A program made the position numbers and the translations under genes. Positions 18,115-61,717 of a DNA stretch of 64,000 nt are shown here, piece after piece. Location: assembly GCA_020848545.1 (NCBI GenBank), contig JADLHZ010000104.1, positions 72,306 to 136,305 on the forward strand, read 5' to 3'. The stretch comes from Deltaproteobacteria bacterium. GTDB taxonomy: Bacteria > Myxococcota > JADLHZ01. Every line of letters starts with the position of its first letter. Positions within the stretch are counted from its first letter, which is position 1. Under the pieces are notes generated by a model, which did no database searches, was not told the DNA's origin, and was given only the letters and a program-made list of their open reading frames with translations.

Positions 18115-18182
18115 GAGGCAATGCTACATCGTTCTACACGACCCGCGCTACCTTTGGCTGTCTCTAAAATCTATTGAATCGA

Positions 18183-19592: not shown

Positions 19593-19595
19593 CGT

Positions 19596-31619: not shown

Positions 31620-31648
<29 letters not shown>
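31070..31648 (-). CDS. Secreted hypothetical protein
   Basis: Signal peptide, several Cys pairs; stop overlaps the downstream start. Confidence 0.45.
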
Positions 31649-33437
<1,789 letters not shown>

Positions 33438-33461
33438 GCCACCCTCCAGACCCGCGATTTC

Positions 33462-34310: not shown

Positions 34311-34325
34311 ACTTCATGCGCGGTC

Positions 34326-36080
<1,755 letters not shown>

Positions 36081-36136
36081 CCGTGTCGTCCATTGTAGCA
36101 GGATCTCGCGCAGAACCTCAGATCAGTTCGCGGGGC

Positions 36137-43019: not shown

Positions 43020-43387
43020 GACGACTCTTCTACCACGCACTTTTTCGACGCAGCCGTAGGCCCGCTGCGAAGCGCAAAGTGATCGATCCACGAAAAATCT
43101 CTCGCCACCGCACCGCGCGTCGTGTGCGCGGCAATAGGCTCAGCAAGAGCCTTCGCCGACGCGACTCAGCAAACGACCGCTGCACAGCGAAAAAACCCGT
43201 CAAGAGGCAATCGCGAAAAAGATAAAAAACACCGAGAAACGCCGCATGAAACCGCAGCCGCGTTTCCGCGGTAGCGTTCGCGCGCGATGACAGCGAAGCT
43301 GAGTGACAGCGGCGCCGGGCGAGCCCCGCCCAGACGCCCCGAGCGCTGCGGCTGGGCGGGAGAGCGAGCCCGAAGCGCCGCGGCAAA

Positions 43388-46399: not shown

Positions 46400-46428
46400 C
46401 GCCTCTCGTGAGTACCAGATAGTCGCGC

Positions 46429-47847: not shown

Positions 47848-49045
47848 GCGCCCTCAGCTCGAGCTCTGGATCGTAGAGCTCGGGCGCGTGCGGGAGCGGC
47901 TTGCGCGTCAGCCGGAAGCTGCGCGGCGGCGACGCAGGCGAGGGTGGGCCGCTCGAGCGTTCGGCGTGCACGCGCCAATGATAGAGACCCTCCGCGAGGT
48001 TCGGGACCGCCTCCGTCGCGTTCTTCGTCTTCTGCTGCAGGACAACGTCGCGGAAGCCAGCGTCGGCGGCGATCTCGAGCACATAAGTCGTGGCGCCATC
48101 GACCTCGGTCCACGAAAAGAGGAGCGCGTCTGCTTGCCGTTTTGCGACGAGGTACTCGAGATCGCGCGGCACGAGCGCGCGCGGCGGCTCGTTGTCGGCC
48201 ACGACGAAGTACGAGGTCGGCGACGCTGGTGAGCCCGCGCCGTCGACGAGCCGCCAGTACACGGGCCCGCGGCGGCCCCACGCGATCTCGACCTCGGCAG
48301 CGCCGGCTTCGCGCGCGATCGCCGGGCGAAGGAAGTCACTCGTCGCGGCGACTTGCACGAAGAGCGGCTCGCGCTCGGCGGCGGCGCGGCGAAAGCGCAG
48401 CGCGATCGATCCGTCTACGCCCGCGGCCGCGTAGACGCGCGCGCCTGGGGGTGGCGAGGCGAGCATCGCGCGGTGCAAAACGATCTGGCCCGGCTCCGAG
48501 AGCTTGCTGCTTTGACCTTCCTTGACCGCGGCGCCCGCGAGCTTCACTTCGCCTGCGAGCACGTCGATGCGCTCCTGACTGTCGAGCCGCGCCTCGGTGC
48601 CCGGAGTGAGCTCTGCCGCCCGTCCGCCGACGTCGAGCACGACGCCCTTCTCCTTCGAGCGCGAGGTGAGGGCGCCCTTCGTGAGCGACAGCCGGTGCGG
48701 CGCTTCCTGGTTGCTCTCCTCGAGCACGAGCAAGCTGTTCTCTTCGAGCGTGAGCTCGGTGCCGTCGCGCAGCGTGATGACGGCGTCGGTGCCCGGTGGA
48801 ACGAAGATGGTGTCGTGCGTGAAGGTCTCGTCGCCGATCACGAGCGTATCCCAGCCGAGGCTGTGCATCGGGCGGCGGCGGATCGTCGCCTGCGCATGCG
48901 TCAGCGCGCCAATGGCCGTCGCGCTGCTGTGGGCGCCGACGTTCCGCGCGCCGCCGTCCTGGGCGATGAGCCACGACACGAGCAACAGGCCGGCGACGCA
49001 GGCGGCGCTGAGCACGGTGTCTGGTTCGCTCTTGGTCTTGGCCAC
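47837..49045 (-). CDS. Membrane-anchored hypothetical protein
   Basis: N-terminal TM segment; 402 aa; stop overlaps the downstream start. Confidence 0.45.
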   Translation of the reverse strand: MAKTKSEPDTVLSAACVAGLLLVSWLIAQDGGARNVGAHSSATAIGALTHAQATIRRRPMHSLGWDTLVIGDETFTHDTIFVPPGTDAVITLRDGTELTLEENSLLVLEESNQEAPHRLSLTKGALTSRSKEKGVVLDVGGRAAELTPGTEARLDSQERIDVLAGEVKLAGAAVKEGQSSKLSEPGQIVLHRAMLASPPPGARVYAAAGVDGSIALRFRRAAAEREPLFVQVAATSDFLRPAIAREAGAAEVEIAWGRRGPVYWRLVDGAGSPASPTSYFVVADNEPPRALVPRDLEYLVAKRQADALLFSWTEVDGATTYVLEIAADAGFRDVVLQQKTKNATEAVPNLAEGLYHWRVHAERSSGPPSPASPPRSFRLTRKPLPHAPELYDPELELRAHDR

Positions 49046-49072
49046 AATCTCACCCCGCCGGCTGCGGTGCGT

Positions 49073-49531
49073 TCAGCGCTTGTTCTTTCCGAGCAGCGCG
49101 TCGAGCTCGGCGCGCGCTTCTTCGAGCCGCCGAATGTGCGCGTGCATGCGATAGGACGCGTGCACGACATCGACGAAGTCAGCGATGTCGTCGAACGGCT
49201 TGAGCAGGTAGTAGTCGATGCGCTGGCGAAAGCCGCGCGTCGAGCTCTCGAGGTTGCCCTTGGCGGTGATCATGACGACGCCGATGTGCGGGTGCAGGTG
49301 GCGCGCTTGATCGATCACTTCGTGGCCGTCGATGCCCGGGAGGCTCTTGTCGGTGACCAGGACGTCGAAGGTGCGTTCGGCGAGGATCTTCAGCGCGTCT
49401 TCGCCGCTGCCCGTTTGCACGACGTCCTCGGTGCCGGCGCGCTTCAACGCCGCCGTCAGCAACGCGAGGATGCTCTCTTCATCGTCGACGAGCAGCACGG
49501 ATCGCGGCGGGCCGACGTTCGCTTGAGACAT
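49073..49531 (-). CDS. Single-domain response regulator (receiver only)
   Basis: Internal ATG; receiver motifs VLLVDDEESI, phospho-acceptor in VLVTDKSLPGIDG, conserved Lys in AKG. Confidence 0.8.
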   Translation of the reverse strand: MSQANVGPPRSVLLVDDEESILALLTAALKRAGTEDVVQTGSGEDALKILAERTFDVLVTDKSLPGIDGHEVIDQARHLHPHIGVVMITAKGNLESSTRGFRQRIDYYLLKPFDDIADFVDVVHASYRMHAHIRRLEEARAELDALLGKNKR

Positions 49532-49675
49532 ACTCAAACTTACCTCTTCACCGAGGCGCGCACCACGTTCTATCCGCGGCCCCGTGCCGTCGCGCATCGT
49601 GTGTCTGACCGAAGAGACGAACGGGACGCGCTATCGTCGCGCGGCGGGCGGGCGGAGTAATTCTGAAAAGCGACG

Positions 49676-51268
49676 TTAGGGGCAAGCAGTCAACGTTTGA
49701 TTGTGATGCACCACGAGGTTGTAAGATCCTGCGCCGGGGACGCCGGTGACGAGGGCAGCGAAGGTGTTCGCTCCCTGCTGGCTCTCGCTGCAGAACACGT
49801 TGGCCATGCTCCCAGCGCCGAAGTTCAGCGTCGGCCCATTGGACAGTGCCATGGCGGCGCCTCCTGTCGGGGCTGCGTCGATGCGCCGGATGGTCGAACT
49901 GCCGATGGTGAGGCTCGATGGGCCCGAAGCCGCCTTGTCCACGGCGATGCCGACGCTCGCGGTGCGTACCGTTGAGAAGTTCATCGTGACGGTGGCTCGT
50001 CTCAGGCTTAGTACGGCGGTCGACCCGTGGCCTGCGAGGAGGACCCGCGTCAGGTTGGCGGTGCTGTCTAGGTCCAGAAGCAGCGCCGGGCCGGCCGCAT
50101 TGTCGACGCTGCTGTCGGTTGCGCTCAGCGTGAGCCCTTGAGCCGCCGTCGCCGGCGTTGGTGGGGCGGCGCGAATCGCACCCAGGCCACCGCCCGCGAT
50201 CCTGATGGATGAACGGACGAGATCGACGCGCGATCCGCTGGTGGTCAGGATCGCGACATCGGCTTGCGTGTCGATGAGGCTGTCTTCGAGCATGAGCGCC
50301 CCTGTCGAGACGAATGCAGCGTCGGTCCCGCCGAGGGTCAGCGTCGAGCGTTGCAGGACGGTCGCCGTAGCGCCGGTCGATTGGTCGAGGATCAAATAGG
50401 TGCCAAGCGTGGTGGGCGCGTCGATTCGAACGTTGCTTAGTACCGTGCCTTCTCCTCCGCCGAGCTTGAGCGCGTGGTTGCCTGTCGCGCTCGATTGAAT
50501 CACCGCGTGGGCGATGACGACGCCGTTGGCCCCGTACGGGACGAAGAAACCGGCTGATGTCGTCAGGGTCACCAAGAACGGAGCGCCTTCGATTCCCAGG
50601 AGACGCACATTGCTGTGGTCGACGACGACCGCCAGATCGACGTTCTGTGGGCGCGGATTCGCGAAAGCGACGCCTGCGCCGATACACAGTGTGAGGTTAT
50701 CGCTCGTCATCCGATCGTCGAGGTTGGCTAGGCTTTCGCTCGTCGCAATGAGCACGTCGCAGGAATGAAACGTCACTCGCGGATGCGAGGCCTTCGGCAC
50801 GTAACGGTGCTCGGCGGTGCATGTCGCCCCCAGGCTGGCGCGGATGACGAGCTCGCGCCAAAGCGCGTGATCGGCGAGGGTGTAGATGAGCGTCGTGCTC
50901 GTATCGCACGCGGCAAATGTTGTGCCCCCGTCATGTGAACATGCAACGGCGTCTCCGGTGTGAGTGAACGAGAGCGTGCGTGCGAGCACGTCGTGAGATC
51001 CATAGTGCAACGCCTGGACCGGAGGCTCGGTTACCGAAAGGTTGAGCTCTGCGCATGTGGACGTGGTGATGCCAGTCCCAGCCGTGGAACCCGTCGCGCC
51101 TTTGGGCGCCGCCGTGTCGCCAGGCGTTGTTGCTGCGTCGTCCGGGACTGCTGGGTCGAGATCATCGCCCGCGACCGACTCACTGCGGGTCGACATCGGT
51201 CGAATGGTGTCGAGCACCAAACACGCGGGCAGGAGCGGTAGCAGCATCGAAAGCGCGGTCGAGCGCAT
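49676..51268 (-). CDS. Secreted lipoprotein, probable beta-helix fold
   Basis: Internal ATG with signal/lipobox (MRSTALSMLLPLLPAC); Ser/Thr/Gly/Ala-rich repetitive body; upstream ORF extension rejected. Confidence 0.55.
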   Translation of the reverse strand: MRSTALSMLLPLLPACLVLDTIRPMSTRSESVAGDDLDPAVPDDAATTPGDTAAPKGATGSTAGTGITTSTCAELNLSVTEPPVQALHYGSHDVLARTLSFTHTGDAVACSHDGGTTFAACDTSTTLIYTLADHALWRELVIRASLGATCTAEHRYVPKASHPRVTFHSCDVLIATSESLANLDDRMTSDNLTLCIGAGVAFANPRPQNVDLAVVVDHSNVRLLGIEGAPFLVTLTTSAGFFVPYGANGVVIAHAVIQSSATGNHALKLGGGEGTVLSNVRIDAPTTLGTYLILDQSTGATATVLQRSTLTLGGTDAAFVSTGALMLEDSLIDTQADVAILTTSGSRVDLVRSSIRIAGGGLGAIRAAPPTPATAAQGLTLSATDSSVDNAAGPALLLDLDSTANLTRVLLAGHGSTAVLSLRRATVTMNFSTVRTASVGIAVDKAASGPSSLTIGSSTIRRIDAAPTGGAAMALSNGPTLNFGAGSMANVFCSESQQGANTFAALVTGVPGAGSYNLVVHHNQTLTACP

Positions 51269-51322
51269 AGCGACCTCGTCTTCTCTCCGTTTCTGCAAGA
51301 GGCACGCCGCGTTCGTTGCGCA

Positions 51323-52837
51323 GTGTTTCTCACTCGGAATGCACGCCGAGCCACTGTGGCTTGCCTCGGTCGGCCGCCAACTCTTGTCGCGGATGGGGTT
51401 GTCTGTCGTTATGCTGCATCGGTGCAGCTTGGTGAGTTTCAGCTCGTACGTAGGCTCGGAAGCGGCGGAATGGGCGAGGTCTTTTTGGTCGAGAGGCGCG
51501 GCCAGAGACTGGTGTTGAAGCGTCCATTGCCGCATCTGGCGAACGATCCCCTCATCAGAGACAGCCTGCGTCGGGAAGCTGCGGTGCTTGCGCGACTCAA
51601 ACACACCTGTATCCCGCGTCTCATCGACGCCGGCGTCATCGATGATGTCCCCTACGTCTGCACCGAGTTCGTCGAAGGTCTCTCCGCTGCGTCGCTTCTC
51701 TCGACATCCGCCACCTTGCCGCCTGGCATCGCGCTGCGCATCGCCGCGGATCTCGCGCAGGCCCTACACCACGCTCACCGCGCCGTCGCAAGCGATGGAA
51801 GCGCCCTGAACCTCGTGCATCGCGACGTATCACCTGCGAACATCATTGTCGGGAAGGATGGGATAGCCCGCGTGATCGACTTCGGCATCGCCAAGACCGA
51901 GTTCACAGAGCAGACCACGACAGGTCGAATCAAAGGCAAGTTTCGTTACATGTCACCTGAGCAGCTTGCAGGTGAGTTGGTCGATGCGCGTTCAGACATC
52001 TTTTCTGCGGGTGTCGTATTGTACGAGCTCTTGACGAGGACGCCCCCGTTCGACGCGAAAAGCGAGCTCGCATTGCTCAACGCCATCGCCCATTCCACGC
52101 CTCTCAAACCCTCAGAACACGGAGCGCCGCTTGTGCTCGACGCGATCGTATTGCGTGCGCTCGAGAAGGCACCGGAGCGGCGCTACGCTTCGGCGGCGCA
52201 GTTCGAAGCCGCCTTGCTCGAACAGTTGCTCGCGCTGGGAACAGGCAACGACCATCGTGCGGTCGCAGCCTACCTCGCCGCCCAAATTTCGACTGATCCG
52301 GTGTTGCCTTCGCAGAGCGCGGAACCTGCAGCGACCCGGCCGAGTACGTCCGAGACCAAAGGTTTTTCCGTGCGCGGAACGACGTACGGCATCGATCGCG
52401 TCGGCCGTGTCCTTGTCCAACTAGACACCAAACCGCCAGACGTGGCCCACTTGAACAGGTTCTTCGATCTACTCGACGCATTGGTCTCTTCGACAGAAGG
52501 AGATGTGGGCACGCTCTGGGTGATCTCGCCGGCGCGTCATCAAAAAGCTTCGCTGTCGGGCGAAGCACGTGCGCGTTTGGTGCAGCGTATTCGCAAGACT
52601 CCGCTGCGCGTGACGAAGATCGCCGTGGTGCTGGAAACGCCTGGCTTCATTCGCATCGCCGTCAAGCCGCTGATCGTGTTGCTTGCCAAGTTCGCCAGCG
52701 GGCGAAGGGATTATCGAATCTTCGATACGGTGGAGCAAGCGTCGGAGTGGATGGTCCAATCGCTGCACGATGGGCCGCCCGCGGCTGAGCTCGTCGCTGC
52801 GGTCGCGACCTTGCGCGCCGAGATTAGAAAAGCCTGA
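51323..52837 (+). CDS. Ser/Thr protein kinase with uncharacterised C-terminal domain
   Basis: GSGGMGEVFL, HRDVSPANIIV, DFG, YMSPEQ motifs; GTG start, true start uncertain. Confidence 0.85.
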   Translation: MFLTRNARRATVACLGRPPTLVADGVVCRYAASVQLGEFQLVRRLGSGGMGEVFLVERRGQRLVLKRPLPHLANDPLIRDSLRREAAVLARLKHTCIPRLIDAGVIDDVPYVCTEFVEGLSAASLLSTSATLPPGIALRIAADLAQALHHAHRAVASDGSALNLVHRDVSPANIIVGKDGIARVIDFGIAKTEFTEQTTTGRIKGKFRYMSPEQLAGELVDARSDIFSAGVVLYELLTRTPPFDAKSELALLNAIAHSTPLKPSEHGAPLVLDAIVLRALEKAPERRYASAAQFEAALLEQLLALGTGNDHRAVAAYLAAQISTDPVLPSQSAEPAATRPSTSETKGFSVRGTTYGIDRVGRVLVQLDTKPPDVAHLNRFFDLLDALVSSTEGDVGTLWVISPARHQKASLSGEARARLVQRIRKTPLRVTKIAVVLETPGFIRIAVKPLIVLLAKFASGRRDYRIFDTVEQASEWMVQSLHDGPPAAELVAAVATLRAEIRKA

Positions 52838-52900
52838 TTTGGCAGACGCCTGGGTCACGCAGCGTGGGTCGGGTTCTCGCGAGTGTGAGATTGCGGGTGT

Positions 52901-55066
52901 CTATTGTCCCAAGCAAAGCAGGTGTAGCCCCGTCGTTGGCTTCGGCTCTGCCGTGTAGCCGGTGCCGTCGCAGCCTCGGTAGTGTCCTGCGAGCCAATGG
53001 GTGTAGCCGCGCGTTTGCCAGGCAGCGTGCGTGACCCAGACCCGCGCGAAGGGGTTCGCGATCGTGTAGTCGATGCAGTTCCCGACGTTGAAGCCATAGG
53101 TGGTGGAGTAGGCGTTCTCGCCATCGAGGCCGTAAAGCACACGATCCGCCCACGTGTCGGGCGTGCCGTCGCCATCGAGATCCTTGTTGGGTACGCCGGC
53201 GGGAATCGGCAGCGCTGGCGGCGTCCCCGTCAGAATCTCCGCGTCCGTGTCGACGAGCGGCGTGCCGAACTCGGTGAGCAAGCGACTCGACGGCACGCCC
53301 TGTTCGAGGTCGGCGATCGAAATGACATCTCCGGCCTGATTGTACCAAGGCCCAGCGCCAACCCGTTTCGTGCCCAGCTCTCGGTTGGCGACGGCCGCCA
53401 CCGAGAGCAACGCCTTCCAGGTGCGCGCCTTGACGGCTGGTGGCGCAGAAGACGCGTTGATCGCGGCGCTACAGACGGCATCCGCCTGAAGGACGCTGCC
53501 GACCGCCGCACCCGAGGGGCCACCTATGCCGGTGCTGGTGACGAAAAACGACAGCGTGTTCGAGCCGGTGCTGCCAGTCGAGCCGGTGCTGCCGGTCGAG
53601 CCGGTGCTGCCGGTCGAGCCGGTGCTGCCGGTCGAGCCGGTGCTGCCGGTGCTCGCATCAGAACCCTTGGTCACGAGGACGGTGACGGCGGCGGTGCGGA
53701 TCAGGTCGCCGGAGCGAGTCGCGTTTCCGCCTCGCGCGACGAGCTTCAGTTGGTACACGCTTGGAAGAAAGTTGGATCCGGCGGGTACGTTTTCGCCCAC
53801 GTGCAGGGTGACCCGGGTCGGACTGTCCTGAAGGGCGAGGGGAAGCGATCCCCGCGGGTCGGTGTTGAGCAAGACCTCACGATAAACGCTGCCATCGAGA
53901 ACATTGCCCGCCGCATCTTCTAGCCAAATTGCATCCGGCGAACGCACGTTGAGAGGTTGTATGGATGCTCCGACGGCTTCGAGCCCGTAACTGATCTGAT
54001 AGCCCCACTGGTCAATGCACGAGGCGTTGATGGTGAGGGGGGCGCTGCGACGACACTGTGTGTTGGCACAGGTCTCGAGACTGACGAGTTGCAAATCGGA
54101 GCGCTCATCGTCGGTGAGTGTCTCGGGGCGCAAGATCCAAATGCCAAAGTCTCGCGCGTGGGTTGGGCCGGTTGCTACACGACGCGGCTCTAGCGAACTA
54201 TACACTCCATCCAGGGGCGGCAGGTCAGCGGGGGTATCGATCGCAAAGAAGTAGTGATCGAAGCCTCCGCTCGCGCTGCGCAGGGCCCGGACGTACTGCG
54301 TGTCGCTTGAGGCGGTGATGACGGCCGTGCCGGTTGAATCAGGGATGCGAAAGGCGTCCGTCTGAGACTCCGCACCAAGCAGCGCCGCCTCCCAGCACCC
54401 GGACCCGTTCACGCAAGCGTCAACGCGCGAAATGCTGTGCCACCCGCTTCCATAGGAAACGAACGCGCGATTGCACACCGAGTCGAGTCCATCCTCAATG
54501 ATGAAGGGATCACGCAACCAACGCACGCTCGGTGCGATGTCTACTGGTCTCCGAATCGATCGAAACGCGAAGAATTCACCAGCTTGGCCATCGCTCTGAA
54601 CAAAGTTCCCAAACCATCCGTTTGAAACAGTCGTCGTGCCGGTGAGCCTCAGCGACTGATCATCGGTAGGTGTGCTCAGTCGCAATTCAATATCGAACAG
54701 AGGGCACCCGTCCGCATTGGTTGCGCGAAAGCTACCAGAGACGGAACCCGTGAAAGGCCCAGCGAAATCACCTACCGAATCAGTGACGTCTTGTAACGTG
54801 TCGGCGCACAAGGGCGTATCTTGGCGGACGCGCAAGCTTGCGCGAGTGTATAGGAACAGCTTTGGAGCCTCGTAGTATGGCTGCCCTCTGTTGGTATAAG
54901 TAAGGACGTAGGTCCAGTCTTCCGGATCCCGCGCCAAGTCATCAGCACCACCCGCCGCCCCCGTATCGCTGCTGCCTGAGCAAGCGCCGGGCGACGCACC
55001 CAGCAGCAGTGAAACAAGGCATAGGAGAACACAAGCTTGGCTGACGGGGCGCGTTTGCGTCTGCAT
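52901..55066 (-). CDS. Secreted lipoprotein with a (Gly-Ser-Thr)n linker
   Basis: Internal ATG with signal peptide (MQTQTRPVSQACVLLCLVSLLLGASPGACSG); central GSTGSTGSTGSTGSTGSTGSTGSTGS linker; C-terminal Cys-containing domain. Confidence 0.6.
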   Translation of the reverse strand: MQTQTRPVSQACVLLCLVSLLLGASPGACSGSSDTGAAGGADDLARDPEDWTYVLTYTNRGQPYYEAPKLFLYTRASLRVRQDTPLCADTLQDVTDSVGDFAGPFTGSVSGSFRATNADGCPLFDIELRLSTPTDDQSLRLTGTTTVSNGWFGNFVQSDGQAGEFFAFRSIRRPVDIAPSVRWLRDPFIIEDGLDSVCNRAFVSYGSGWHSISRVDACVNGSGCWEAALLGAESQTDAFRIPDSTGTAVITASSDTQYVRALRSASGGFDHYFFAIDTPADLPPLDGVYSSLEPRRVATGPTHARDFGIWILRPETLTDDERSDLQLVSLETCANTQCRRSAPLTINASCIDQWGYQISYGLEAVGASIQPLNVRSPDAIWLEDAAGNVLDGSVYREVLLNTDPRGSLPLALQDSPTRVTLHVGENVPAGSNFLPSVYQLKLVARGGNATRSGDLIRTAAVTVLVTKGSDASTGSTGSTGSTGSTGSTGSTGSTGSTGSTGSNTLSFFVTSTGIGGPSGAAVGSVLQADAVCSAAINASSAPPAVKARTWKALLSVAAVANRELGTKRVGAGPWYNQAGDVISIADLEQGVPSSRLLTEFGTPLVDTDAEILTGTPPALPIPAGVPNKDLDGDGTPDTWADRVLYGLDGENAYSTTYGFNVGNCIDYTIANPFARVWVTHAAWQTRGYTHWLAGHYRGCDGTGYTAEPKPTTGLHLLCLGQ
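53561..53650. repeat. Five tandem copies of an 18 bp unit (cgagccggtgctgccggt) within the lipoprotein CDS
   Basis: Seen directly in the sequence; in-frame on the minus strand, encoding the GST repeats; copies nearly identical. Confidence 0.7.
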
Positions 55067-55206
55067 GGAAGGACCTCGGCTCTCTTCCACGAGCAAGCAC
55101 AGTGCCAGATGCATGGCGCTTGACGGGTTGGCGCTACCAACCAAGCTGATGCGACTTCATGCTGGGCGAGCCACAGTGGCTCGCCCAGCGCGCTGGCCAC
55201 GCGCGG

Positions 55207-56517
55207 CTACTTTCTGAACGACTCGGGGGAGAGAGAGAAGCGCTTCAGCCAACGATAGATCTGTTTGCGATCGGCATCGAGCGCTTTGGCGAGCGCCACC
55301 ACGTTGCCCTTGCTTTGCTCCAAGGCCGCGACGAAGGCCTCCTTGCTCATGGGGGGGCTCGGCGAGCGTCGCTTGACCCGTCCGATTGGCGTGTCTGCGG
55401 CCTGGTTCGCGATGGCGGGTGTCGTTGTCTCGGGCGTGCACGACGTGAGCAACGTGCTGATCGGAGTACCCAATGCGAAGCGTTGCAACACCGAACGGAG
55501 TTCGCGCACGTTGAGCGGCCAGTCGAAACACAGCAAACGCTCGAGATCGTCGACAGTGAGCACTTCGTTGGGCGGCATGAGCGCGGCAGCGATCAGGGGA
55601 ATATCCTCTTTTCTCGCGCGCAAAGGTGGGACGTGAAGCAGCCCAGCGCTGAGGCGCGCGAAGAGATCGCGACGAAAGTGCTTGGCACCCGGAAGATCAA
55701 TGGCCGCATTGGTCGCCGCCACGATTCGGGCGTTCGACTTCTCGGCCTTGCGCGCGCCCACCGGCGTGAAGTCCAGCGTCTCGAGCACACGCAGGAGCTT
55801 GGCTTGCTGCGACTGCGGCATCTCGCCGACTTCGTCGAGAAAAAGCGTGCCGTCTCTGGCCTGCTCGAACGCGCCGCTGGCATCGGTGCTCGCTCCAGTG
55901 AATGCACCTTTGACATGACCGAACATGTACGACTCGAAGAGCGTCTCAGGGATGGCTGAGACGTTGACGGGAACGAGCTGGCCTTTGCGCTCGCTCTGCG
56001 CGTGTAAACGGCGCGCGAGCAGCTCCTTGCCCGAGCCGGTCTCGCCGATCAGCAGCACGGGTAACTCCGTGCGCGCGAGCGCGTCGAGCGCACTGAGGAG
56101 TGAGGTCAAGGTGGCCGAGCGACCGATCAATTCACCGCTCGTTGCCGGCGGCCCCTCGGGAAGCTGCGTCCAGATGAACAAGGTGTCGCCGATGCGAAGC
56201 ACGTCGTGTGCGCGCAGCGTAGAGCGTTGCACCTTGGCTCCGTTGACGAAGGTGCCGTTCTTGCTGCCGGCGTCCTCAACCACGACCGCGTCGCCCTGCC
56301 TGGTCAGCACCGCGTGGCGACGCGAGGCTCGCTCGTCCTGGGTGAGCGCAATGTCGACGGTCTCGCCACCGCCGCGGCCGAGCGACAGCTGTTTAGACAC
56401 AGCGTGACTGACGCCCTCGAGCGCTGCGTTTGCGTAGCGAACGACGATCAAGCCGAATTGCGGCGAGGCAGGCGCTGCTTGGCCACGGTCGATCCGGGAG
56501 ACAGTGCTGTTGGCCAT
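55207..56517 (-). CDS. Sigma-54-dependent transcriptional activator with N-terminal FHA domain
   Basis: FHA-like N-terminus; AAA+ sigma-54 interaction domain (GETGSGKE, GAFTGA, LFLDEVGEM); C-terminal HTH; ATG at 56517 (ORF begins at TTG 56526). Confidence 0.9.
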   Translation of the reverse strand: MANSTVSRIDRGQAAPASPQFGLIVVRYANAALEGVSHAVSKQLSLGRGGGETVDIALTQDERASRRHAVLTRQGDAVVVEDAGSKNGTFVNGAKVQRSTLRAHDVLRIGDTLFIWTQLPEGPPATSGELIGRSATLTSLLSALDALARTELPVLLIGETGSGKELLARRLHAQSERKGQLVPVNVSAIPETLFESYMFGHVKGAFTGASTDASGAFEQARDGTLFLDEVGEMPQSQQAKLLRVLETLDFTPVGARKAEKSNARIVAATNAAIDLPGAKHFRRDLFARLSAGLLHVPPLRARKEDIPLIAAALMPPNEVLTVDDLERLLCFDWPLNVRELRSVLQRFALGTPISTLLTSCTPETTTPAIANQAADTPIGRVKRRSPSPPMSKEAFVAALEQSKGNVVALAKALDADRKQIYRWLKRFSLSPESFRK

Positions 56518-56612
56518 GTCAGACAATTACTTGCTCGAGTCATGGTAGGACAAGATCTTCGCGTCTGACGTCAAAAGGACATGCCGTTCGGCTGCTTTCG
56601 CGAGCGAAGCGA

Positions 56613-57143
56613 ATGAGCCTCGGTTGGTTCGCAGACGACGTGTGCCTTGGCGCTCCTGATGGTGTGGCTCGCGGTGCGGCTCGCGGCGTGGCTCCGCATA
56701 CGTGGCTCAAGAAGAATCCGCGCAGTCGCAGGCCGATGGCGACCTCGTGGGTCGCGCCTCGCGGGCAGCGAGCGCCTGGTACGCACCGTGCATTTTTCCG
56801 CGCCATGGGCGACCCGAGTCAACGCGCGTATGGTTCTCGACTGCTCAAGGAAGTCGCCGAGGACTATCAGACGAGCACGCGCACATTGCAGCGGAGGTTC
56901 GCCGCCAAAGGCGTCCGCTTCCGCGATCTGCGAAACGACGCGCAAACGAACACGGCCAAGCAACTGCTTCTGATCGGCCGGTATACCGTTCGCGAAGTCG
57001 CAGCACAGCTCGGCTACGCTACGTCCTCGAGCTTCTGTCGCGCGTTCAAACGCAACGCCGGCTGCACGCCGCGCGAGTATGTGACCAACGCGGCTGCTCG
57101 CCCTGACGGCTCGGGGGCTCAGCCTGAGCTCGACAATTCTTGA
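56613..57143 (+). CDS. AraC-family HTH domain protein
   Basis: C-terminal AraC-type HTH (TLQRRFAAKGVRFRDLRNDAQTNTAKQLL...VREVAAQLGYATSSSFCRAFKRNAGCTPREY); N-terminal extent uncertain. Confidence 0.5.
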   Translation: MSLGWFADDVCLGAPDGVARGAARGVAPHTWLKKNPRSRRPMATSWVAPRGQRAPGTHRAFFRAMGDPSQRAYGSRLLKEVAEDYQTSTRTLQRRFAAKGVRFRDLRNDAQTNTAKQLLLIGRYTVREVAAQLGYATSSSFCRAFKRNAGCTPREYVTNAAARPDGSGAQPELDNS

Positions 57144-57188
57144 TCTTCCGGCGCGGACCGCCGCAACGCGAGCGATGGGGGCGACGCG

Positions 57189-59543
57189 ATGAACATCGGT
57201 CGACTGACTGAAATTGTCGCCCAGGCGATCACCAGCGAGCAAACGCTGGCGGCCAACCTGACGCGGGCGCGAGAACGCGTCGAAGCTGTGCCTGCCGACG
57301 AGGAGGGATGGTTCGCACTGGTGGTCGCGACGGCGATGACAGGCGACGCGCGCGTGATCGATCACGCGATCGTGTCGGCGCGGGTGAAGGTGTCGAGCAG
57401 CGACGCACTGCAGCTGTGTGTCGCCTTTGCTTCCTGGCGCGCACGCGAGACACGTCGCGCGCTCCGCAGCCTCACGGAGTCGCCCGCTTGCGATCTGCGC
57501 GTCGCCATCGCGGCGCTCATGCACCCGACGTCAGAGGATGAACCGTTGCGAGATCTGCGACTGGAGGCGCTGCGCGGGCTCCGTGCGGAGGCGGAAGGTC
57601 GGTGCCACGTCCCGAGCGGCGATCACTGGTTAGAACTGGCGCACCGATTGCGCGCGGTAAGGCAAGGGCTCGCCGTCGAGGCGTCACCGGTCGATCTCTT
57701 GGTCGACCTCGAGTCGGCCTTGACCCTCGCCGATCGATTGGAGGTCGACTTCGAGCGGGGCCTCGCGTTCGAGCTTCGCGCGGCGGCGCTCGCCGCGAAC
57801 GATGCGTCGGACGCGGATGTTACCGCGGCCTTGTCCCATGCCGCTCGCGCCTACCTGGCAGTCGGCGCCTACAAAGAGGCCCAGGCGCTTTCGCCGATGT
57901 TCTCGCGCTTCGGCGCGCGGGCGAGCGACGGGCACGTGCCGCAGCGCCTGCGCCGTGCGATTCGCGAGAGCGTTGCCGAGACGCACGCAATCCGCGATTG
58001 CGTGGGGGCGCTCAACGACACCGTCAGCGCCCACGCCGGGCCGCGCGAGCTCGTCGGCCACCTCGAGTGCTTGGAAGATCAAGTCGCGCTCATCCAACGC
58101 TACACAGATCAGACGGTGGGCGTGCGAGAACGCGAGTACCGTGCGGGAGGCATGATCGAGTCACTGATCGAGCTGCAGGGAACCGAGCTCGTCTGCCAAG
58201 CGCTCGTCGCAACGGTGTACGCTGATTGTCAGGCTCGGGGATGTTTGGTCTGCCGTTGGGATCAGCGCGTCACGTCGATCGTCGCACGGGCTGGGGCGTC
58301 GGTGGAGGGAGCCGAGGGAACGGTACGCTACGCTCTCGACGAAGCAAGCCAGCTCGCGATGATTGTCTTGCCTCACGAGCGGGCTGACGATGAAGATCGC
58401 GCCCGGGTGCGGCGGTTGGTCGCTGCTACACGACTCGCGCTGGATCGCTTGGCGTTGCGGCGAGATGTCGACGGGTTGCGCGAACAACTGCGTCTCGTCG
58501 GGCAAACCCCGAACCTCCAAGCCAGAGCAGAAGGCCGAGGCAACACGCGCTACCAGCTCAAAGACTTCGTCGGCCGTTCGCCCTCAGCCCGCGCCGCTGT
58601 CGAAGCAGCAGAACGGGCGGCGCGAACCGACCTGCCCGTCTTGATCATCGGCGAGACAGGCACCGGCAAAGAGCTCATCGCGCAAGCGATCCATGCGGCA
58701 TCGCCGCGAAAGGATGCGCCGTTCGTCGCGCTCAATATGGCTGCGATACCTCTCGAGCTGTTCGAGGCGGAGCTGTTTGGTTACGAGGCAGGGGCATTCA
58801 CGGGCGCCAATCCGCGAGGGGCGCAGGGAAAACTGGAGCTGGCCGGTGACGGGACGCTGCTGCTCGACGAAATCGGCGATCTGCCCTTCGTCATGCAGGC
58901 TAAGCTCTTGCGAGCGATCCAAGAACGGCGGTTTCGTCGCGTGGGTGGGCAAAAAGAGCACATGTTCTTCGCGCGTGTGATCGCGACCACGAATGTCGAT
59001 TTACCGACGAAGGTCAAGAACGAAGCCTTTCGCGCCGATCTCTATTATCGGCTCGCGGGAGTGCGGATTTCGCTACCGCCGCTACGGGAGCGACGCGAAG
59101 ACATTCCCGATCTCGTGAACCACTACATCGCGCGCGCGTGTGCTCGCTTGGGTCGCGCGCGGGTCGACGTCGCAGCGATCGTCATGCAGTCTTTGCGTGC
59201 GCGGCAGTGGCCGGGCAACGTGAGAGAGCTCGAGATGGCGATCGAAAGAGCGATTGCGGCCCTGCCGGAACACAGCCGTCTTTGGGATCGTAGCGGTGAG
59301 GAAGAGCACGAAACCGGACCGACGCTACACTCGGTTCGAACCTTGTCGTCGACCGTCGATGTCGCGATCCGGGACCTGTTCGTCGACGCGATCACACGGA
59401 CTTCCGGCGATGTGACGCGCATGTCTCGCGAGCTTGGGATGTCGAAGGTGACGGTGTATGCGAAGCTGAAGCGCCTCGGGCTTACCGACACATTGGAGCA
59501 AGCGAGGCTCGAGCGACGCGCCGTACAAAAGACGACGCAGTGA
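57189..59543 (+). CDS. Sigma-54-dependent transcriptional activator with large N-terminal sensory region
   Basis: About 470 aa N-terminal region of unknown type; AAA+ sigma-54 domain (GETGTGKE, GAFTGA, LLLDEIGDL); C-terminal HTH; ATG start. Confidence 0.9.
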   Translation: MNIGRLTEIVAQAITSEQTLAANLTRARERVEAVPADEEGWFALVVATAMTGDARVIDHAIVSARVKVSSSDALQLCVAFASWRARETRRALRSLTESPACDLRVAIAALMHPTSEDEPLRDLRLEALRGLRAEAEGRCHVPSGDHWLELAHRLRAVRQGLAVEASPVDLLVDLESALTLADRLEVDFERGLAFELRAAALAANDASDADVTAALSHAARAYLAVGAYKEAQALSPMFSRFGARASDGHVPQRLRRAIRESVAETHAIRDCVGALNDTVSAHAGPRELVGHLECLEDQVALIQRYTDQTVGVREREYRAGGMIESLIELQGTELVCQALVATVYADCQARGCLVCRWDQRVTSIVARAGASVEGAEGTVRYALDEASQLAMIVLPHERADDEDRARVRRLVAATRLALDRLALRRDVDGLREQLRLVGQTPNLQARAEGRGNTRYQLKDFVGRSPSARAAVEAAERAARTDLPVLIIGETGTGKELIAQAIHAASPRKDAPFVALNMAAIPLELFEAELFGYEAGAFTGANPRGAQGKLELAGDGTLLLDEIGDLPFVMQAKLLRAIQERRFRRVGGQKEHMFFARVIATTNVDLPTKVKNEAFRADLYYRLAGVRISLPPLRERREDIPDLVNHYIARACARLGRARVDVAAIVMQSLRARQWPGNVRELEMAIERAIAALPEHSRLWDRSGEEEHETGPTLHSVRTLSSTVDVAIRDLFVDAITRTSGDVTRMSRELGMSKVTVYAKLKRLGLTDTLEQARLERRAVQKTTQ

Positions 59544-61645: not shown

Positions 61646-61717
61646 GTGTCAGTATCCGACGTGGCGTTCAAATTGCGATGTCCATTTTGCGTCACGCGCG
61701 CCCGGGGTGCGCGCCGC

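What the first reader, a model, noticed from the sequence alone, without database searches (positions are those of the whole stretch)
49073..59543. Dense signalling neighbourhood: receiver protein, Ser/Thr kinase, FHA sigma-54 activator, AraC-like protein and a second sigma-54 activator interleaved with secreted lipoprotein genes
Within about 10 kb a Ser/Thr kinase (51323..52837), an FHA-containing sigma-54 activator (55207..56517) and another sigma-54 activator (57189..59543) flank large secreted or beta-helix-like lipoproteins. FHA domains bind phospho-Thr, suggesting a kinase-to-enhancer-binding-protein relay. A further FHA-GAF sigma-54 activator and kinase pair lies at 31.6..36.1 kb.
Basis: partly seen in the sequence, partly recalled or inferred. 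Interest (0 to 1): 0.4.

Follow-up and report, generated by a model that had tools for sequence, protein, structure and literature searches.

The report
Kinase-gated sigma-54 lipoprotein control module
In an uncultured myxobacterium-like genome, a Ser/Thr kinase, a phosphothreonine-reading sigma-54 activator and three sigma-54 promoters that share one operator sequence appear to form a small circuit controlling two surface lipoproteins and two further regulators; this is a clear new example of a known kind of myxobacterial signalling.

Summary
The only perfect TGGCAC-N5-TTGCW site in 64 kb (chance expectation 0.04) lies in the 140-bp gap between the FHA activator gene and the 721-aa lipoprotein gene. 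It is followed by a Shine-Dalgarno sequence and the ATG.

Two weaker −24/−12 sites precede lipoprotein 1 and a 112-aa AraC-type gene that heads an operon with the second activator. All three promoters carry GAGCCAC/GTGGCTC half-sites upstream: palindromes at −72 and −94, and four tandem copies at −136 to −98. Six of the 17 copies in the window fall in these 580 bp (P≈1.6e-8).

The FHA domain has the canonical pThr-binding residues. The kinase has its catalytic residues apart from one Lys→Ser change. Homologous FHA activators sit beside a Ser/Thr kinase gene in 9 of 9 informative loci, usually next to a sigma-54 promoter that drives an exported protein.

- The 31.6-kb activator has no canonical FHA domain.
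- The "fli-like" genes are a type III secretion cluster with no sigma-54 site.
- "Beta-helix" could not be confirmed.

Verdict: a new member of a known kind (myxobacterial kinase/FHA-activator/sigma-54 modules). Side finding: many of these sigma-54 promoters sit 11–13 nt from an ATG, which implies leaderless mRNAs.

The parts
49073..49531 (-). Stand-alone receiver (REC) protein, 152 aa, with a C-terminal coiled-coil tail. It lies 144 nt downstream of lipoprotein 1 and heads or joins a REC / FecR-domain / unknown / dCache-HAMP histidine kinase gene string that runs to 44642.
   Evidence: Pfam Response_reg 4.9e-23. Start ATG 49531 has an SD. The acidic pocket DD, phospho-acceptor D, T and K are present in the sequence. 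Its GC3 is like the flanking genes, so membership in the module is uncertain.
49676..51268 (-). Lipoprotein 1, 530 aa. Lipobox LLPAC, no known family.
   Evidence: ORF and translation. Start ATG 51268 with an SD. No Pfam, NCBIfam or PDB relative.
51294..51309 (-). Sigma-54-type -24/-12 element CGGCGTGCCTCTTGCA (weak). It ends 25 nt before the lipoprotein 1 ATG. Predicted TSS about 51283.
   Evidence: Weighted scan, score 17 of 20. The geometry is identical to the lipoprotein 2 promoter. The SD GACGAGG lies in the spacer. On its own this score is at chance level. Its position and the upstream operator argue for it.
51345..51365 (.). Operator/UAS copy GCCGAGCCACTGTGGCTTGCC (core AAGCCAC-A-GTGGCTC), centred about -72 from the lipoprotein 1 TSS, in the divergent lipoprotein 1 / kinase gap.
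   Evidence: It is the only other match in 64 kb to the 21-bp palindrome, with 2 mismatches; chance expectation 0.2. Geometry. It lies in a divergent promoter region, so a terminator role is implausible.
51422..52837 (+). Soluble Hanks-type Ser/Thr kinase, 471 aa (ORF open from 51323), with an uncharacterised C-terminal domain of about 170 aa.
   Evidence: Pkinase 1e-33. Full-length alignment to PknB at 5e-44 shows the Gly-loop, beta3 Lys, alphaC Glu, HRD, Asn, DFG and SPE. The catalytic-loop Lys is Ser (HRDVSPAN). The activation loop is Thr-rich. No TM segment. The C-terminal domain has no Pfam or PDB hit.
52901..55066 (-). Lipoprotein 2, 721 aa: an orphan N-terminal region of about 460 aa, a (GST)9 linker, and a conserved C-terminal domain of about 220 aa (FFVTS...VGxGPWxN, weakly DUF1554-like).
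   Evidence: Translation. One full-length homologue only, P0001, 28% identity. The C-terminal domain is shared with 24 metagenome loci. DUF1554 E=0.004.
55092..55107 (-). Perfect sigma-54 promoter TGGCACTGTGCTTGCT. Predicted TSS about 55081. SD GAGG at 55077-55074; ATG at 55066.
   Evidence: It is the only perfect TGGCAC-N5-TTGCW in 64 kb, with expectation 0.04. About 4e-5 are expected in this oriented gap. Sequence context.
55161..55189 (.). Perfect 14+14 bp inverted repeat GCTGGGCGAGCCAC-t-GTGGCTCGCCCAGC, centred about -94 from the lipoprotein 2 TSS and 18 nt after the EBP1 stop codon. Candidate enhancer (UAS); it may also act as the EBP1 terminator hairpin.
   Evidence: There is no T-tract after the stem, and the generic terminator scan did not pick it up.
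55207..56517 (-). EBP1: FHA - AAA+ (sigma-54 interaction) - HTH activator, 436 aa.
   Evidence: Pfam FHA 8e-16, Sigma54_activat 5e-54, HTH_8 6e-4. Walker A and B and GAFTGA are intact. FHA residues. 100% identical to P0003, annotated 'MAG: sigma 54-interacting transcriptional regulator [Deltaproteobacteria bacterium]'.
56664..56708 (+). Four tandem direct half-sites (GTGGCTC, GCGGCTC, GTGGCTC, GTGGCTC; spacing 12, 12 and 14 bp), centred at -136 to -98 from the AraC/EBP2 promoter, in the divergent EBP1 / AraC gap.
   Evidence: Six of the 17 exact GTGGCTC/GAGCCAC copies in the window fall in the three promoter gaps (580 bp), Poisson P=1.6e-8.
56777..56792 (+). Sigma-54-type promoter TGGTACGCACCGTGCA, 12 nt before ATG 56805. 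The predicted transcript is leaderless.
   Evidence: Matches TGGYRY-N6-TGCW, for which there are 6 sites against 1.46 expected. Score 18.5 of 20. The AraC homologue in L001 has the same 12-nt spacing.
56805..57143 (+). AraC/XylS-type regulator, 112 aa, DNA-binding domain only (MarA/SoxS-like architecture).
   Evidence: HTH_18 6e-18 covering residues 18-93. The GC3 frame plot shows coding only from about 56800. 38% identical to the 126-aa HTH_18 protein next to the lipoprotein 2 homologue in L001.
57189..59543 (+). EBP2: sigma-54 activator, 784 aa, with an orphan 455-aa helical N-terminal region, 45 nt downstream of the AraC-type gene (probable operon).
   Evidence: Sigma54_activat 1e-62, AAA_lid_14, HTH_8. 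GAFTGA and Walker motifs. The N-terminal region has no homologue at E<=1e-3 among 1.84e9 representative proteins or in the word-indexed search. Its coding signature is good.

Best explanation
The region from 49.7 to 59.5 kb is a self-contained sigma-54 regulatory module of an uncultured Myxococcota-type bacterium.

Proposed input (inferred): the soluble Ser/Thr kinase (51.4-52.8 kb) senses something through its uncharacterised C-terminal domain. It creates a phosphothreonine epitope, either on its own Thr-rich activation loop or on a partner. The FHA domain of EBP1 reads this epitope, which relieves inhibition or promotes assembly of the EBP1 AAA+ ring.

Proposed DNA targets (sequence shown, binding inferred): the activator binds GAGCCAC/GTGGCTC half-sites arranged in two ways. 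Palindromes lie at -72 and -94 of the two lipoprotein promoters. Four tandem copies lie at -136 to -98 of the regulator operon.

Proposed outputs: the activator remodels sigma-54 RNA polymerase at three -24/-12 promoters. These drive (i) lipoprotein 2, (ii) lipoprotein 1, and (iii) a leaderless transcript for a MarA/SoxS-like AraC-type regulator followed by EBP2. EBP2 is a second sigma-54 activator with an orphan sensor region. The third output would give a feed-forward or cascade layer, as in the M. xanthus activator cascade.

The net effect would be signal-dependent remodelling of the cell surface.

What is shown here: the domains, the motifs, the promoter and operator sequences with their statistics, and the conserved gene neighbourhood.

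What is inferred: phosphorylation, FHA-pThr binding, which activator binds the operator, and transcription.
For: (1) The perfect sigma-54 consensus occurs once in 64 kb (expected 0.04). It lies in the correct orientation 25 nt before the lipoprotein 2 ATG, with an SD in between. About 4e-5 such sites are expected in that gap.

(2) The lipoprotein 1 promoter has the same layout, with the ATG at +16.

(3) The 21-bp palindrome upstream of lipoprotein 2 recurs only once in the window, upstream of lipoprotein 1. The AraC/EBP2 promoter has four tandem half-sites. Six of 17 half-site copies lie in 580 bp of promoter gaps, P=1.6e-8. Leaving out the discovery palindrome, 4 of 15 lie in 440 bp, which I calculated by hand from the counts as P about 4e-6. 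The -72 and -94 centres are two helical turns apart.

(4) EBP1 has an intact FHA pThr pocket, Walker A and B, GAFTGA and an HTH. The kinase has its catalytic residues and a Thr-rich activation loop.

(5) A kinase gene lies within two genes of EBP1 homologues in 9 of 9 informative loci, and abuts the activator gene in L004, L033 and L034.

(6) Sigma-54-type promoters sit just upstream of adjacent genes in those loci, often genes for lipoproteins or other exported proteins (L003, L033, L001, L034). The promoter-to-start spacing is strongly bimodal. Cases at 11-13 nt all start with ATG, and cases at about 25-29 nt all have an SD. Nine of 19 pairs fall at 11-13 nt, P=2e-12. Chance motif hits would not behave this way.

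(7) The only locus with a lipoprotein 2 homologue (L001, plus a 94-kb contig) also carries a kinase, an FHA activator and a homologous short AraC-type gene. Sigma-54-type sites precede the lipoprotein gene, the AraC gene and two other genes there.

(8) Experimental precedents in M. xanthus: FHA-domain activators (Jelsbak 2005, cited); Nla28 using 3-5 tandem 8-bp half-sites and targeting activator genes (PMC9765219); PexR binding dyad-symmetry UAS repeats upstream of sigma-54 promoters (PMC12754779).
Against: - There are no experimental data.
- The lipoprotein 1 promoter (17 of 20) and the AraC promoter (18.5 of 20) score at levels that occur by chance across the window (34 observed against 34 expected; 6 against 6). 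Only their position and the operator argue for them.
- The lipoprotein 2 palindrome lies 18 nt after the EBP1 stop codon, so it could simply be a terminator hairpin.
- Nothing shows whether EBP1, EBP2 or the AraC-type protein binds the half-sites.
- The kinase catalytic-loop Lys is replaced by Ser (HRDVSPAN).
- Here the kinase and EBP1 are separated by the lipoprotein 2 gene and are not co-transcribed, unlike in L004, L033 and L034.
- Myxococcota genomes carry many kinases, so the cognate kinase could lie elsewhere.
- rpoN is not in the window.
- L001 does not share the GTGGCTC operator.
Confidence: 0.55

Rival explanations
1. The regulon is real, but EBP2 (or EBP2 together with EBP1 as a hetero-oligomer) is the protein that binds the GAGCCAC/GTGGCTC operator. 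The FHA activator and the kinase would then act on other promoters, or only upstream in a cascade.
For: The four tandem half-sites sit in front of the operon that encodes EBP2, which fits autoregulation. Both activators have intact GAFTGA and an HTH, and their recognition helices differ. M. xanthus activators regulate their own and other activator genes. A title in a reference list says that myxobacterial activators act as hetero-oligomers (Volz 2012, seen).
Against: The strongest promoter and the longest perfect palindrome lie immediately downstream of the EBP1 gene. In relatives, sigma-54 promoters track the FHA-activator/kinase pair without any EBP2-like gene. EBP2's sensor region has no homologue anywhere, whereas the lipoprotein, AraC, kinase and FHA-activator association recurs in L001.
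Confidence: 0.2
2. This is chance co-location. Myxococcota genomes are packed with kinases, sigma-54 activators and lipoproteins. Only the lipoprotein 2 promoter is real, the palindrome is the EBP1 terminator, and the other sites and the kinase link are coincidental.
For: The window alone has three kinases and three activators. The weak promoter scores are at chance frequency. The palindrome directly follows a stop codon. The kinase is not co-transcribed with EBP1.
Against: The second palindrome copy lies in a divergent promoter gap where a terminator makes no sense. The half-site clustering has P about 1e-8. Kinase adjacency holds in 9 of 9 loci. The L001 synteny includes the AraC-type gene with the same 12-nt promoter spacing. 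The spacing classes match the presence or absence of an SD.
Confidence: 0.15
3. The short AraC-type protein, not a sigma-54 activator, binds the GTGGCTC repeats. It would act as a repressor or co-activator at the three promoters.
For: AraC-family proteins often use direct repeats (general knowledge of the family). The gene is conserved next to the lipoprotein gene in L001.
Against: MarA/SoxS-type monomers bind asymmetric sites of about 20 bp, not 15-bp perfect palindromes (general knowledge of the family). Sigma-54 promoters need an AAA+ activator bound upstream. The -72 to -136 positions are typical for a UAS (text).
Confidence: 0.07
4. The low-GC3 island is an anti-phage defence or conflict island built around a PD-T4-6-like kinase.
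For: The kinase matches PADLOC PD-T4-6 models at up to 3.7e-73. The module genes have atypical codon usage, GC3 0.70-0.78 against 0.88-0.93 in flanking genes.
Against: The PADLOC matches cover only the generic catalytic domain. The activator matches cover only the AAA+ core. The lipoproteins and the AraC-type protein have no defence hits. No integrase or tRNA lies nearby. The promoter and operator logic points to lipoprotein genes.
Confidence: 0.03

Closest known systems
FHA-domain enhancer-binding proteins of Myxococcus xanthus (Jelsbak, Givskov & Kaiser 2005; Jakobsen et al. 2004)
   Same: The architecture is the same: N-terminal FHA, sigma-54 AAA+ domain with GAFTGA, C-terminal HTH. The phylum is the same or closely related. 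The proposed input is also the same, a Ser/Thr kinase acting through pThr recognition.
   Different: The window protein is at most 47% identical to any other protein in a 5.8-billion-sequence collection. It comes from an uncultured MAG. Here candidate target promoters and an operator can be read directly beside the gene. I could not read the 2005 paper, so its details rest on citations and on my own knowledge.
Nla28/Nla6 activator cascade of M. xanthus (PMC9765219)
   Same: Short half-sites occur in tandem, 3-5 per promoter. An activator targets the promoters of other activator genes. Targets include envelope-related genes.
   Different: Nla28 is a response regulator driven by a histidine kinase, not an FHA protein. 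Its half-site is CT(C/G)CG(C/G)AG, and most of its promoters are intragenic. Here the promoters are intergenic and very close to the start codons.
PexR of M. xanthus (PMC12754779)
   Same: A sigma-54 activator binds repeated dyad-symmetry UAS elements upstream of -24/-12 promoters of adjacent genes. Leaderless mRNAs are noted in myxobacteria.
   Different: PexR senses peroxide through a metal-binding GAF domain. Its palindrome is CACCG-N6-CGGTG. [quoted passage not shown]
Mycobacterial kinase-to-FHA relays: PknB-GarA and PknH-EmbR (references listed in PMC6213207)
   Same: A Hanks-type kinase recruits or phosphorylates an FHA-domain regulator through pThr. EBP1's FHA aligns with the GarA and Rv1747 FHA domains and keeps the conserved residues.
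   Different: The output domain here is a sigma-54 AAA+ activator. GarA is a metabolic-enzyme regulator and EmbR is an OmpR/SARP-type DNA-binding protein.
MarA/SoxS-type AraC-family regulators
   Same: The protein is about 110 aa and consists only of the double-HTH DNA-binding domain, so its activity is probably set by how much of it is made (the link to synthesis level is my own knowledge).
   Different: It is not an orthologue: the SoxS model scores 20 bits against a cutoff of 174. Here its gene appears to be sigma-54-dependent and leaderless.
Rrp2-RpoN control of lipoproteins in Borrelia, and the 'sigma-54 controls the bacterial exterior' theme (PMC3162934)
   Same: Sigma-54 and an activator control surface lipoprotein genes.
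   Different: In Borrelia, Rrp2-RpoN also controls Sigma-S (RpoS). Here the lipoprotein genes themselves carry the -24/-12 promoters.

Membership tests
Bacterial enhancer-binding proteins (sigma-54 activators): EBP1 and EBP2 | AAA+ sigma-54 interaction domain with Walker A and B | tested here: met
   PF00158 at 4.7e-54 (EBP1) and 9.6e-63 (EBP2). GETGSGKE/LFLDE and GETGTGKE/LLLDE.
Bacterial enhancer-binding proteins (sigma-54 activators): EBP1 and EBP2 | GAFTGA loop that contacts sigma-54 | tested here: met
   GAFTGA at residue 204 (EBP1), 535 (EBP2) and 373 (EBP3).
Bacterial enhancer-binding proteins (sigma-54 activators): EBP1 and EBP2 | C-terminal HTH DNA-binding domain | tested here: met
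   EBP2 scores 24.0 bits on HTH_8, above the cutoff of 22. EBP1 scores 19.9 bits, just below the cutoff, with further HTH_29 and HTH_23 matches on the same residues 395-431.
Bacterial enhancer-binding proteins (sigma-54 activators): EBP1 and EBP2 | A -24/-12 target promoter with an upstream activator sequence | tested here: met
   The perfect site at 55107-55092 and two weaker sites, each with GAGCCAC/GTGGCTC half-sites at -72 to -136. Which activator uses them was not determined.
Bacterial enhancer-binding proteins (sigma-54 activators): EBP1 and EBP2 | ATP-dependent activation of sigma-54 RNA polymerase; rpoN present in the genome | not testable with these tools
   Only 64 kb are available and rpoN is not in the window.
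FHA-domain activators paired with Hanks kinases (Myxococcota) | FHA fold with the pThr-binding residues (Gly-Arg, Ser-x-x-His, Asn-Gly) | tested here: met
   PF00498 at 8.4e-16. G47R48, S65RRH68 and S85KNGT align to the GarA, Rv1747 and TB39.8 FHA domains.
FHA-domain activators paired with Hanks kinases (Myxococcota) | A Ser/Thr kinase gene in the immediate neighbourhood | tested here: met
   In the window the kinase is two genes away. In homologues, 9 of 9 informative loci have one.
FHA-domain activators paired with Hanks kinases (Myxococcota) | pThr-dependent control of activator activity | not testable with these tools
   This needs phosphorylation and binding assays.
Hanks-type Ser/Thr kinase (the 51.4-52.8 kb gene) | Catalytic motifs: Gly-loop, beta3 Lys, alphaC Glu, HRDxKxxN, DFG, APE | tested here: inconclusive
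   All motifs are present in the alignment to PknB except the catalytic-loop Lys, which is Ser (HRDVSPAN). The effect of this change on activity is unknown.
   No FHA hit in Pfam. Yop-YscD_cpl at E=0.23. hhalign probability 25%, with the SxNGT loop absent. The sequence lacks GR and SxxH. GAF, AAA+ and HTH are present.
MarA/SoxS subfamily of AraC/XylS regulators (the 112-aa protein) | Double-HTH domain only, with no ligand or dimerisation domain | tested here: met
   HTH_18 covers residues 18-93 of 112. The coding signal starts at about 56800.
MarA/SoxS subfamily of AraC/XylS regulators (the 112-aa protein) | Orthology to SoxS or MarA | tested here: not met
   NCBIfam SoxS scores 20.3 bits against a cutoff of 174. 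The best hit, QhpR, scores 72 against 250.
PD-T4-6 / kinase-based anti-phage defence | A match beyond the generic kinase domain, and a defence-island context | tested here: inconclusive
   PADLOC PD-T4-6 models match residues 4-309 only, which is the catalytic domain. The neighbours have no defence hits.

The most novel reading that the evidence does not exclude
FHA-activator/kinase pairs in uncultured Myxococcota form a widespread, conserved three-part cassette: kinase, pThr-reading sigma-54 activator, and an adjacent sigma-54-driven gene for an exported protein. A large share of the sigma-54 promoters in these cassettes would start transcription at or within about 3 nt of the ATG. That would be sigma-54-dependent leaderless mRNAs, a combination I could not find described in the searched literature. 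The window would then show the most elaborate version: three promoters sharing one operator, feeding a leaderless MarA-like regulator and an activator whose 455-aa sensor region has no homologue among 1.84 billion representative proteins.
Probability: 0.4. Interest if true: 0.55.

Novelty: new member of a known kind. Interest (0 to 1): 0.38.

Why it matters
For FHA-domain sigma-54 activators, the cognate kinase, the DNA site and the target genes have rarely been identified together. In this locus all three can be proposed from sequence: a kinase, a 15-29 bp operator, and three promoters. That gives a compact system that is directly testable for how Ser/Thr phosphorylation is turned into sigma-54 transcription. 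The comparative pattern suggests a general rule for annotating Myxococcota genomes: a kinase beside the activator in 9 of 9 loci, and adjacent sigma-54 promoters in front of genes for lipoproteins or other exported proteins. The 11-13-nt promoter-to-ATG class, if confirmed by 5'-end mapping, would show that sigma-54 promoters can drive leaderless genes, and it would also improve start-codon calling. None of this overturns current understanding. It extends a known myxobacterial theme.

Tried and rejected
- **Lipoprotein 2 homologue search.** The (GST)9 repeat probably saturated the word index. Only one true homologue came back.
- **Genome-collection scan.** It returned only the same MAG as L001.
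- **Metagenome scan.** It returned 24 loci that share only the C-terminal domain of about 120 aa, so they say nothing about promoter conservation.
- **Depositor's gene calls for the window contig.** Not on record. I refined the starts myself from GC3 frame plots and SD motifs.
- **Structure prediction.** The EBP2 N-terminal region gave pLDDT 40 and the lipoprotein 2 C-terminal domain gave pLDDT 35. Both models are unusable, so I ran no fold search.
- **Sequence searches against PDB.** The kinase C-terminal domain, lipoprotein 1 and lipoprotein 2 gave nothing. The only hits were Gly/Ser-linker artefacts.
- **NCBIfam.** No protein reaches an equivalog cutoff.
- **PADLOC.** Only generic kinase and AAA+ matches.
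- **Rfam and tRNA scans.** Nothing found.
- **Sigma-70 promoter and terminator scan.** At chance level.
- **Sigma-54-like hit at 39121-39106 with an upstream GAGCCAC.** It lies inside a coding region about 300 nt upstream of a phosphofructokinase-like gene, so I treated it as chance.
- **Candidate sites near the TonB-receptor / hybrid-kinase gap (61738-61723 and 61662-61677).** They are weak, have no half-sites, and are left undecided.
- **Sigma-54 sites before the T3SS genes.** None credible.
- **Search for the GTGGCTC operator in L001.** Absent. A different 8-mer, GTCACATG, occurs only twice there, both times near sigma-54-type promoters. That is too little to build on.
- **Palindromes upstream of promoters in other loci.** Heterogeneous and uninformative.
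- **Jelsbak 2005 paper.** Not held in the library.

Full report
**Source and setting.** The window is about 65% G+C. The FHA activator encoded at 55207-56517(-) is 100% identical to an NCBI protein from a 183-kb contig annotated "MAG... [Deltaproteobacteria bacterium]". The next-closest proteins are at most 47% identical and come from Myxococcota-type MAGs, including Sandaracinaceae, Kofleriaceae and "Myxococcota" bins. The window carries three Hanks-type kinases, three sigma-54 activators, several histidine kinases and a type III secretion cluster. That density is typical of this phylum.

**Observation check.** The two interleaved large ORFs have lipoprotein signal peptides (LLPAC; LGASPGAC) and no family.

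I refined the gene starts with GC3 frame plots and SD motifs.
- The AraC-type gene is only 112 aa (56805-57143), that is, a bare double-HTH domain.
- The kinase most likely starts at 51422.
- Lipoprotein 1 starts at 51268 and lipoprotein 2 at 55066.

- The activator at 31620-33461 has GAF + AAA+ + HTH but no canonical FHA. Pfam finds none, hhalign gives 25%, and the pThr-binding motifs are absent.
- The "fli-like" genes are T3SS genes: YscO, an EscN-type ATPase and YscJ.
- "Beta-helix-like" has no support from Pfam or PDB sequence searches.

TGGCAC-N5-TTGCW occurs exactly once in the 64 kb, where 0.04 are expected and 4 of 100 shuffles had one or more. It lies at 55107→55092 on the minus strand, in the 140-bp gap between the EBP1 stop codon (55207) and the lipoprotein 2 ATG (55066). 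It is followed by GAGG seven nucleotides before the ATG. The expected number of perfect sites in that oriented gap is about 4e-5.

A weighted scan found two further sites in promoter position. TGGTACGCACCGTGCA (56777-56792, +) lies 12 nt before the ATG of the AraC-type gene. CGGCGTGCCTCTTGCA (51309→51294, -) lies 25 nt before the ATG of lipoprotein 1. Window-wide, such scores occur at chance frequency (34 against 34; 6 against 6), so these two rest on their position and on the evidence below.

**A shared operator.** Upstream of the lipoprotein 2 promoter is a perfect 14+14-bp inverted repeat, GCTGGGCGAGCCAC-t-GTGGCTCGCCCAGC (55161-55189). It is centred about -94 from the predicted start. Its 21-bp core recurs only once in the window, with 2 mismatches, at 51345-51365. 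That copy is centred about -72 from the predicted lipoprotein 1 start (expectation 0.2). It lies in a divergent promoter gap, where a terminator has no role.

The gap upstream of the AraC-type gene contains four tandem half-sites (GTGGCTC, GCGGCTC, GTGGCTC, GTGGCTC) centred at -136, -124, -112 and -98. Six of the 17 exact GTGGCTC/GAGCCAC copies in the window fall within these three gaps, which total 580 bp (Poisson P=1.6e-8). Leaving out the palindrome from which the motif was derived, 4 of 15 copies fall in 440 bp, which I calculated by hand as P about 4e-6.

The two lipoprotein promoters are built identically, with the ATG at +16, and their palindromes are 22 bp apart, which is two helical turns. 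This is the anatomy of a small regulon served by one DNA-binding activator. M. xanthus offers experimental parallels. Nla28 uses 3-5 tandem 8-bp half-sites and targets activator genes (PMC9765219). PexR binds repeated dyad-symmetry UAS elements upstream of sigma-54 promoters (PMC12754779).

**The proteins.**
- EBP1 has Walker A and B, GAFTGA and an HTH. Its FHA domain carries G47-R48, S65-R-R-H68 and S85-K-N-G-T, aligned to the mycobacterial FHA domains of GarA, Rv1747 and TB39.8.
- The kinase aligns end to end with PknB (5e-44) and has all catalytic motifs except the catalytic-loop Lys, which is Ser (HRDVSPAN). Its activation loop is Thr-rich. It has no TM segment, and its C-terminal domain of about 170 aa has no relatives in Pfam or PDB.
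- EBP2 has a complete AAA+/HTH core. Its 455-aa N-terminal region has a good coding signature but no homologue at E≤1e-3 among 1.84 billion representative proteins.
- The genes from 49.7 to 59.5 kb have GC3 of 0.70-0.78, against 0.88-0.93 in flanking genes. The module is compositionally distinct: recently acquired, fast-evolving, or weakly expressed.

**Comparative evidence.** Lipoprotein 2 has a single full-length homologue, P0001 (28% identity over 93% of the length). P0001 is found in another Myxococcota MAG. Its neighbourhood contains two kinases, an FHA sigma-54 activator and a 126-aa HTH_18 protein that is 38% identical to the window's AraC-type protein. In that locus (L001), sigma-54-type sites precede four genes, including the lipoprotein gene and the AraC-type gene. 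The AraC-type gene shows the same 12-nt promoter-to-ATG spacing as in the window.

For EBP1 homologues (38-47% identity), I examined every context with enough flanking DNA. A Pkinase gene lies within two genes in 9 of 9, and it abuts the activator gene in L004, L033 and L034. In most of these loci a sigma-54-type promoter sits immediately before a gene adjacent to the pair. Several of those genes encode lipoproteins or other exported proteins: the L003 750-aa lipoprotein, the L033 lipoprotein, the L034 protein with a Tat-like signal, and genes in L001.

**A side finding that also validates the promoter calls.** The distance from the end of the 16-nt motif to the called start codon is bimodal. 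Nine of 19 pairs lie at 11-13 nt (binomial P=2e-12; 8 of 14 outside the window, P=6e-12). All nine start with ATG and leave no room for an SD. The 25-29-nt class always has a GGAG-type SD in the spacer. With the -12 C defined as -12, an ATG 12 nt after the motif begins at about +3. These transcripts are therefore predicted to be leaderless. A literature search found no paper that links sigma-54 promoters with leaderless mRNAs. Leaderless transcripts as such are noted for myxobacteria. Random motif hits would not show this structure.

**Mechanism proposed.**
- Shown: the domains, motifs, promoters, operator and synteny.
- Inferred: the kinase generates a pThr epitope on its activation loop or on a partner, as PknB does for GarA and PknH for EmbR (references). 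The EBP1 FHA domain reads this epitope. Active EBP1 bound at the GAGCCAC/GTGGCTC sites then drives sigma-54 transcription of lipoprotein 2, lipoprotein 1 and the AraC-EBP2 operon. The bare-HTH AraC-type protein would act according to how much of it is made. EBP2 adds a second, independently sensed layer.
- The outcome would be regulated change of the cell surface, in line with the proposed general role of sigma-54 in controlling the bacterial exterior (PMC3162934).

**Rivals.** The main rival is that EBP2 rather than EBP1 binds the operator. This cannot be resolved in silico. A pure-coincidence reading is disfavoured by the operator statistics, the divergent-gap copy, the 9 of 9 kinase adjacency and the L001 synteny. 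An AraC-operator reading and a defence-island reading have little support.

**Novelty and score.** FHA-domain sigma-54 activators and their presumed kinase inputs have been known in M. xanthus since 2004-2005 (citations). Activator cascades and UAS architectures are also well described there. This is a new and unusually legible member of that kind. Its modestly novel features are a shared operator across three promoters, a sigma-54-driven leaderless MarA-like regulator, and an orphan sensor on EBP2. It also gives a comparative hint of a general cassette and of leaderless sigma-54 promoters. I score interest at 0.38.

Noticed in passing
window 56777-56807; L001 1277-1307, 4877-4908, 4808-4778; L003 10765-10735; L031 6835-6864; L032 7400-7431; L033 10919-10949; L034 11080-11111: Sigma-54-type promoters whose 16-nt motif ends 11-13 nt before an ATG start, with no SD possible. 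This predicts leaderless sigma-54 transcripts. Nine of 19 promoter-gene pairs fall in this class (P about 2e-12). A second class at 25-29 nt always has a GGAG-type SD. I found no description of sigma-54-driven leaderless mRNAs in the searched literature.
   Followed up: partly
window 57189-58553 (+): The 455-aa N-terminal region of EBP2 is a true orphan. It has no homologue at E<=1e-3 in 1.84 billion representative proteins, yet it has a normal coding signature. It is predicted all-helical, but the model is unreliable (pLDDT 40).
   Followed up: partly
window about 49676-59543 compared with flanks: The module genes have GC3 of 0.70-0.78, while neighbouring genes (histidine kinase at 44.6 kb, EBP3, STK2, PutA) have 0.88-0.93. 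Regional G+C drops to 0.61-0.64. This is a compositionally distinct island with no tRNA or integrase nearby.
   Followed up: partly
window 17614-26356 (-): A type III secretion gene cluster (YscO-like, EscN-type ATPase, FliG_C-like, YscJ/FliF, TPR chaperone-like) in a lower-GC stretch. No credible sigma-54 promoter was found upstream of these genes.
   Followed up: partly
window 31620-36122 (-): STK2 (598 aa), a TPR protein (283 aa) and EBP3 (GAF-AAA+-HTH) are packed head to tail, with a 12-nt gap and then no gap, so they probably form an operon. EBP3's N-terminal 100 residues resemble only the C-terminal strands of an FHA domain and lack the pThr-binding residues. This may be a degenerate FHA-like domain.
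   Followed up: partly
window 53561-53650 (-), within lipoprotein 2: A perfect (Gly-Ser-Thr)9 repeat links the orphan N-terminal region to the conserved C-terminal domain (FFVTS...VGxGPWxN; weak DUF1554 hit). The homologue P0001 has only a short remnant. The repeat produced spurious collagen and linker hits in several searches.
   Followed up: no
window 51872-51895 (+), kinase catalytic loop: The catalytic loop reads HRDVSPAN rather than HRDxKxxN. The Lys that normally contacts the gamma-phosphate is Ser. Whether this is a lineage-typical variant of active kinases was not tested.
   Followed up: no
window 44642-49531 (-): REC (152 aa), a FecR-domain membrane protein (402 aa), a secreted protein of unknown family (472 aa) and a dCache-HAMP histidine kinase (585 aa) are closely spaced or overlapping. 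This is probably a separate two-component operon just downstream of lipoprotein 1. Whether it is read through from the lipoprotein 1 promoter is unknown.
   Followed up: no
window 5919-8129 (-): A third Hanks-type kinase, fused to a C-terminal alpha/beta-hydrolase domain (Pkinase + Abhydrolase_6).
   Followed up: no
L001 2870-2877 and 4821-4828: The 8-mer GTCACATG occurs only twice in the 12-kb locus, both times just upstream of sigma-54-type promoters (one copy inside an 11+11 palindrome CGCGCGTCACATGCGACGCGCG). It may be the operator of that locus's own activator.
   Followed up: partly
window 41793-43139 (-): A DUF222 + HNH endonuclease gene sits between housekeeping genes. Genes of this kind are often mobile. 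It has no obvious link to the module.
   Followed up: no
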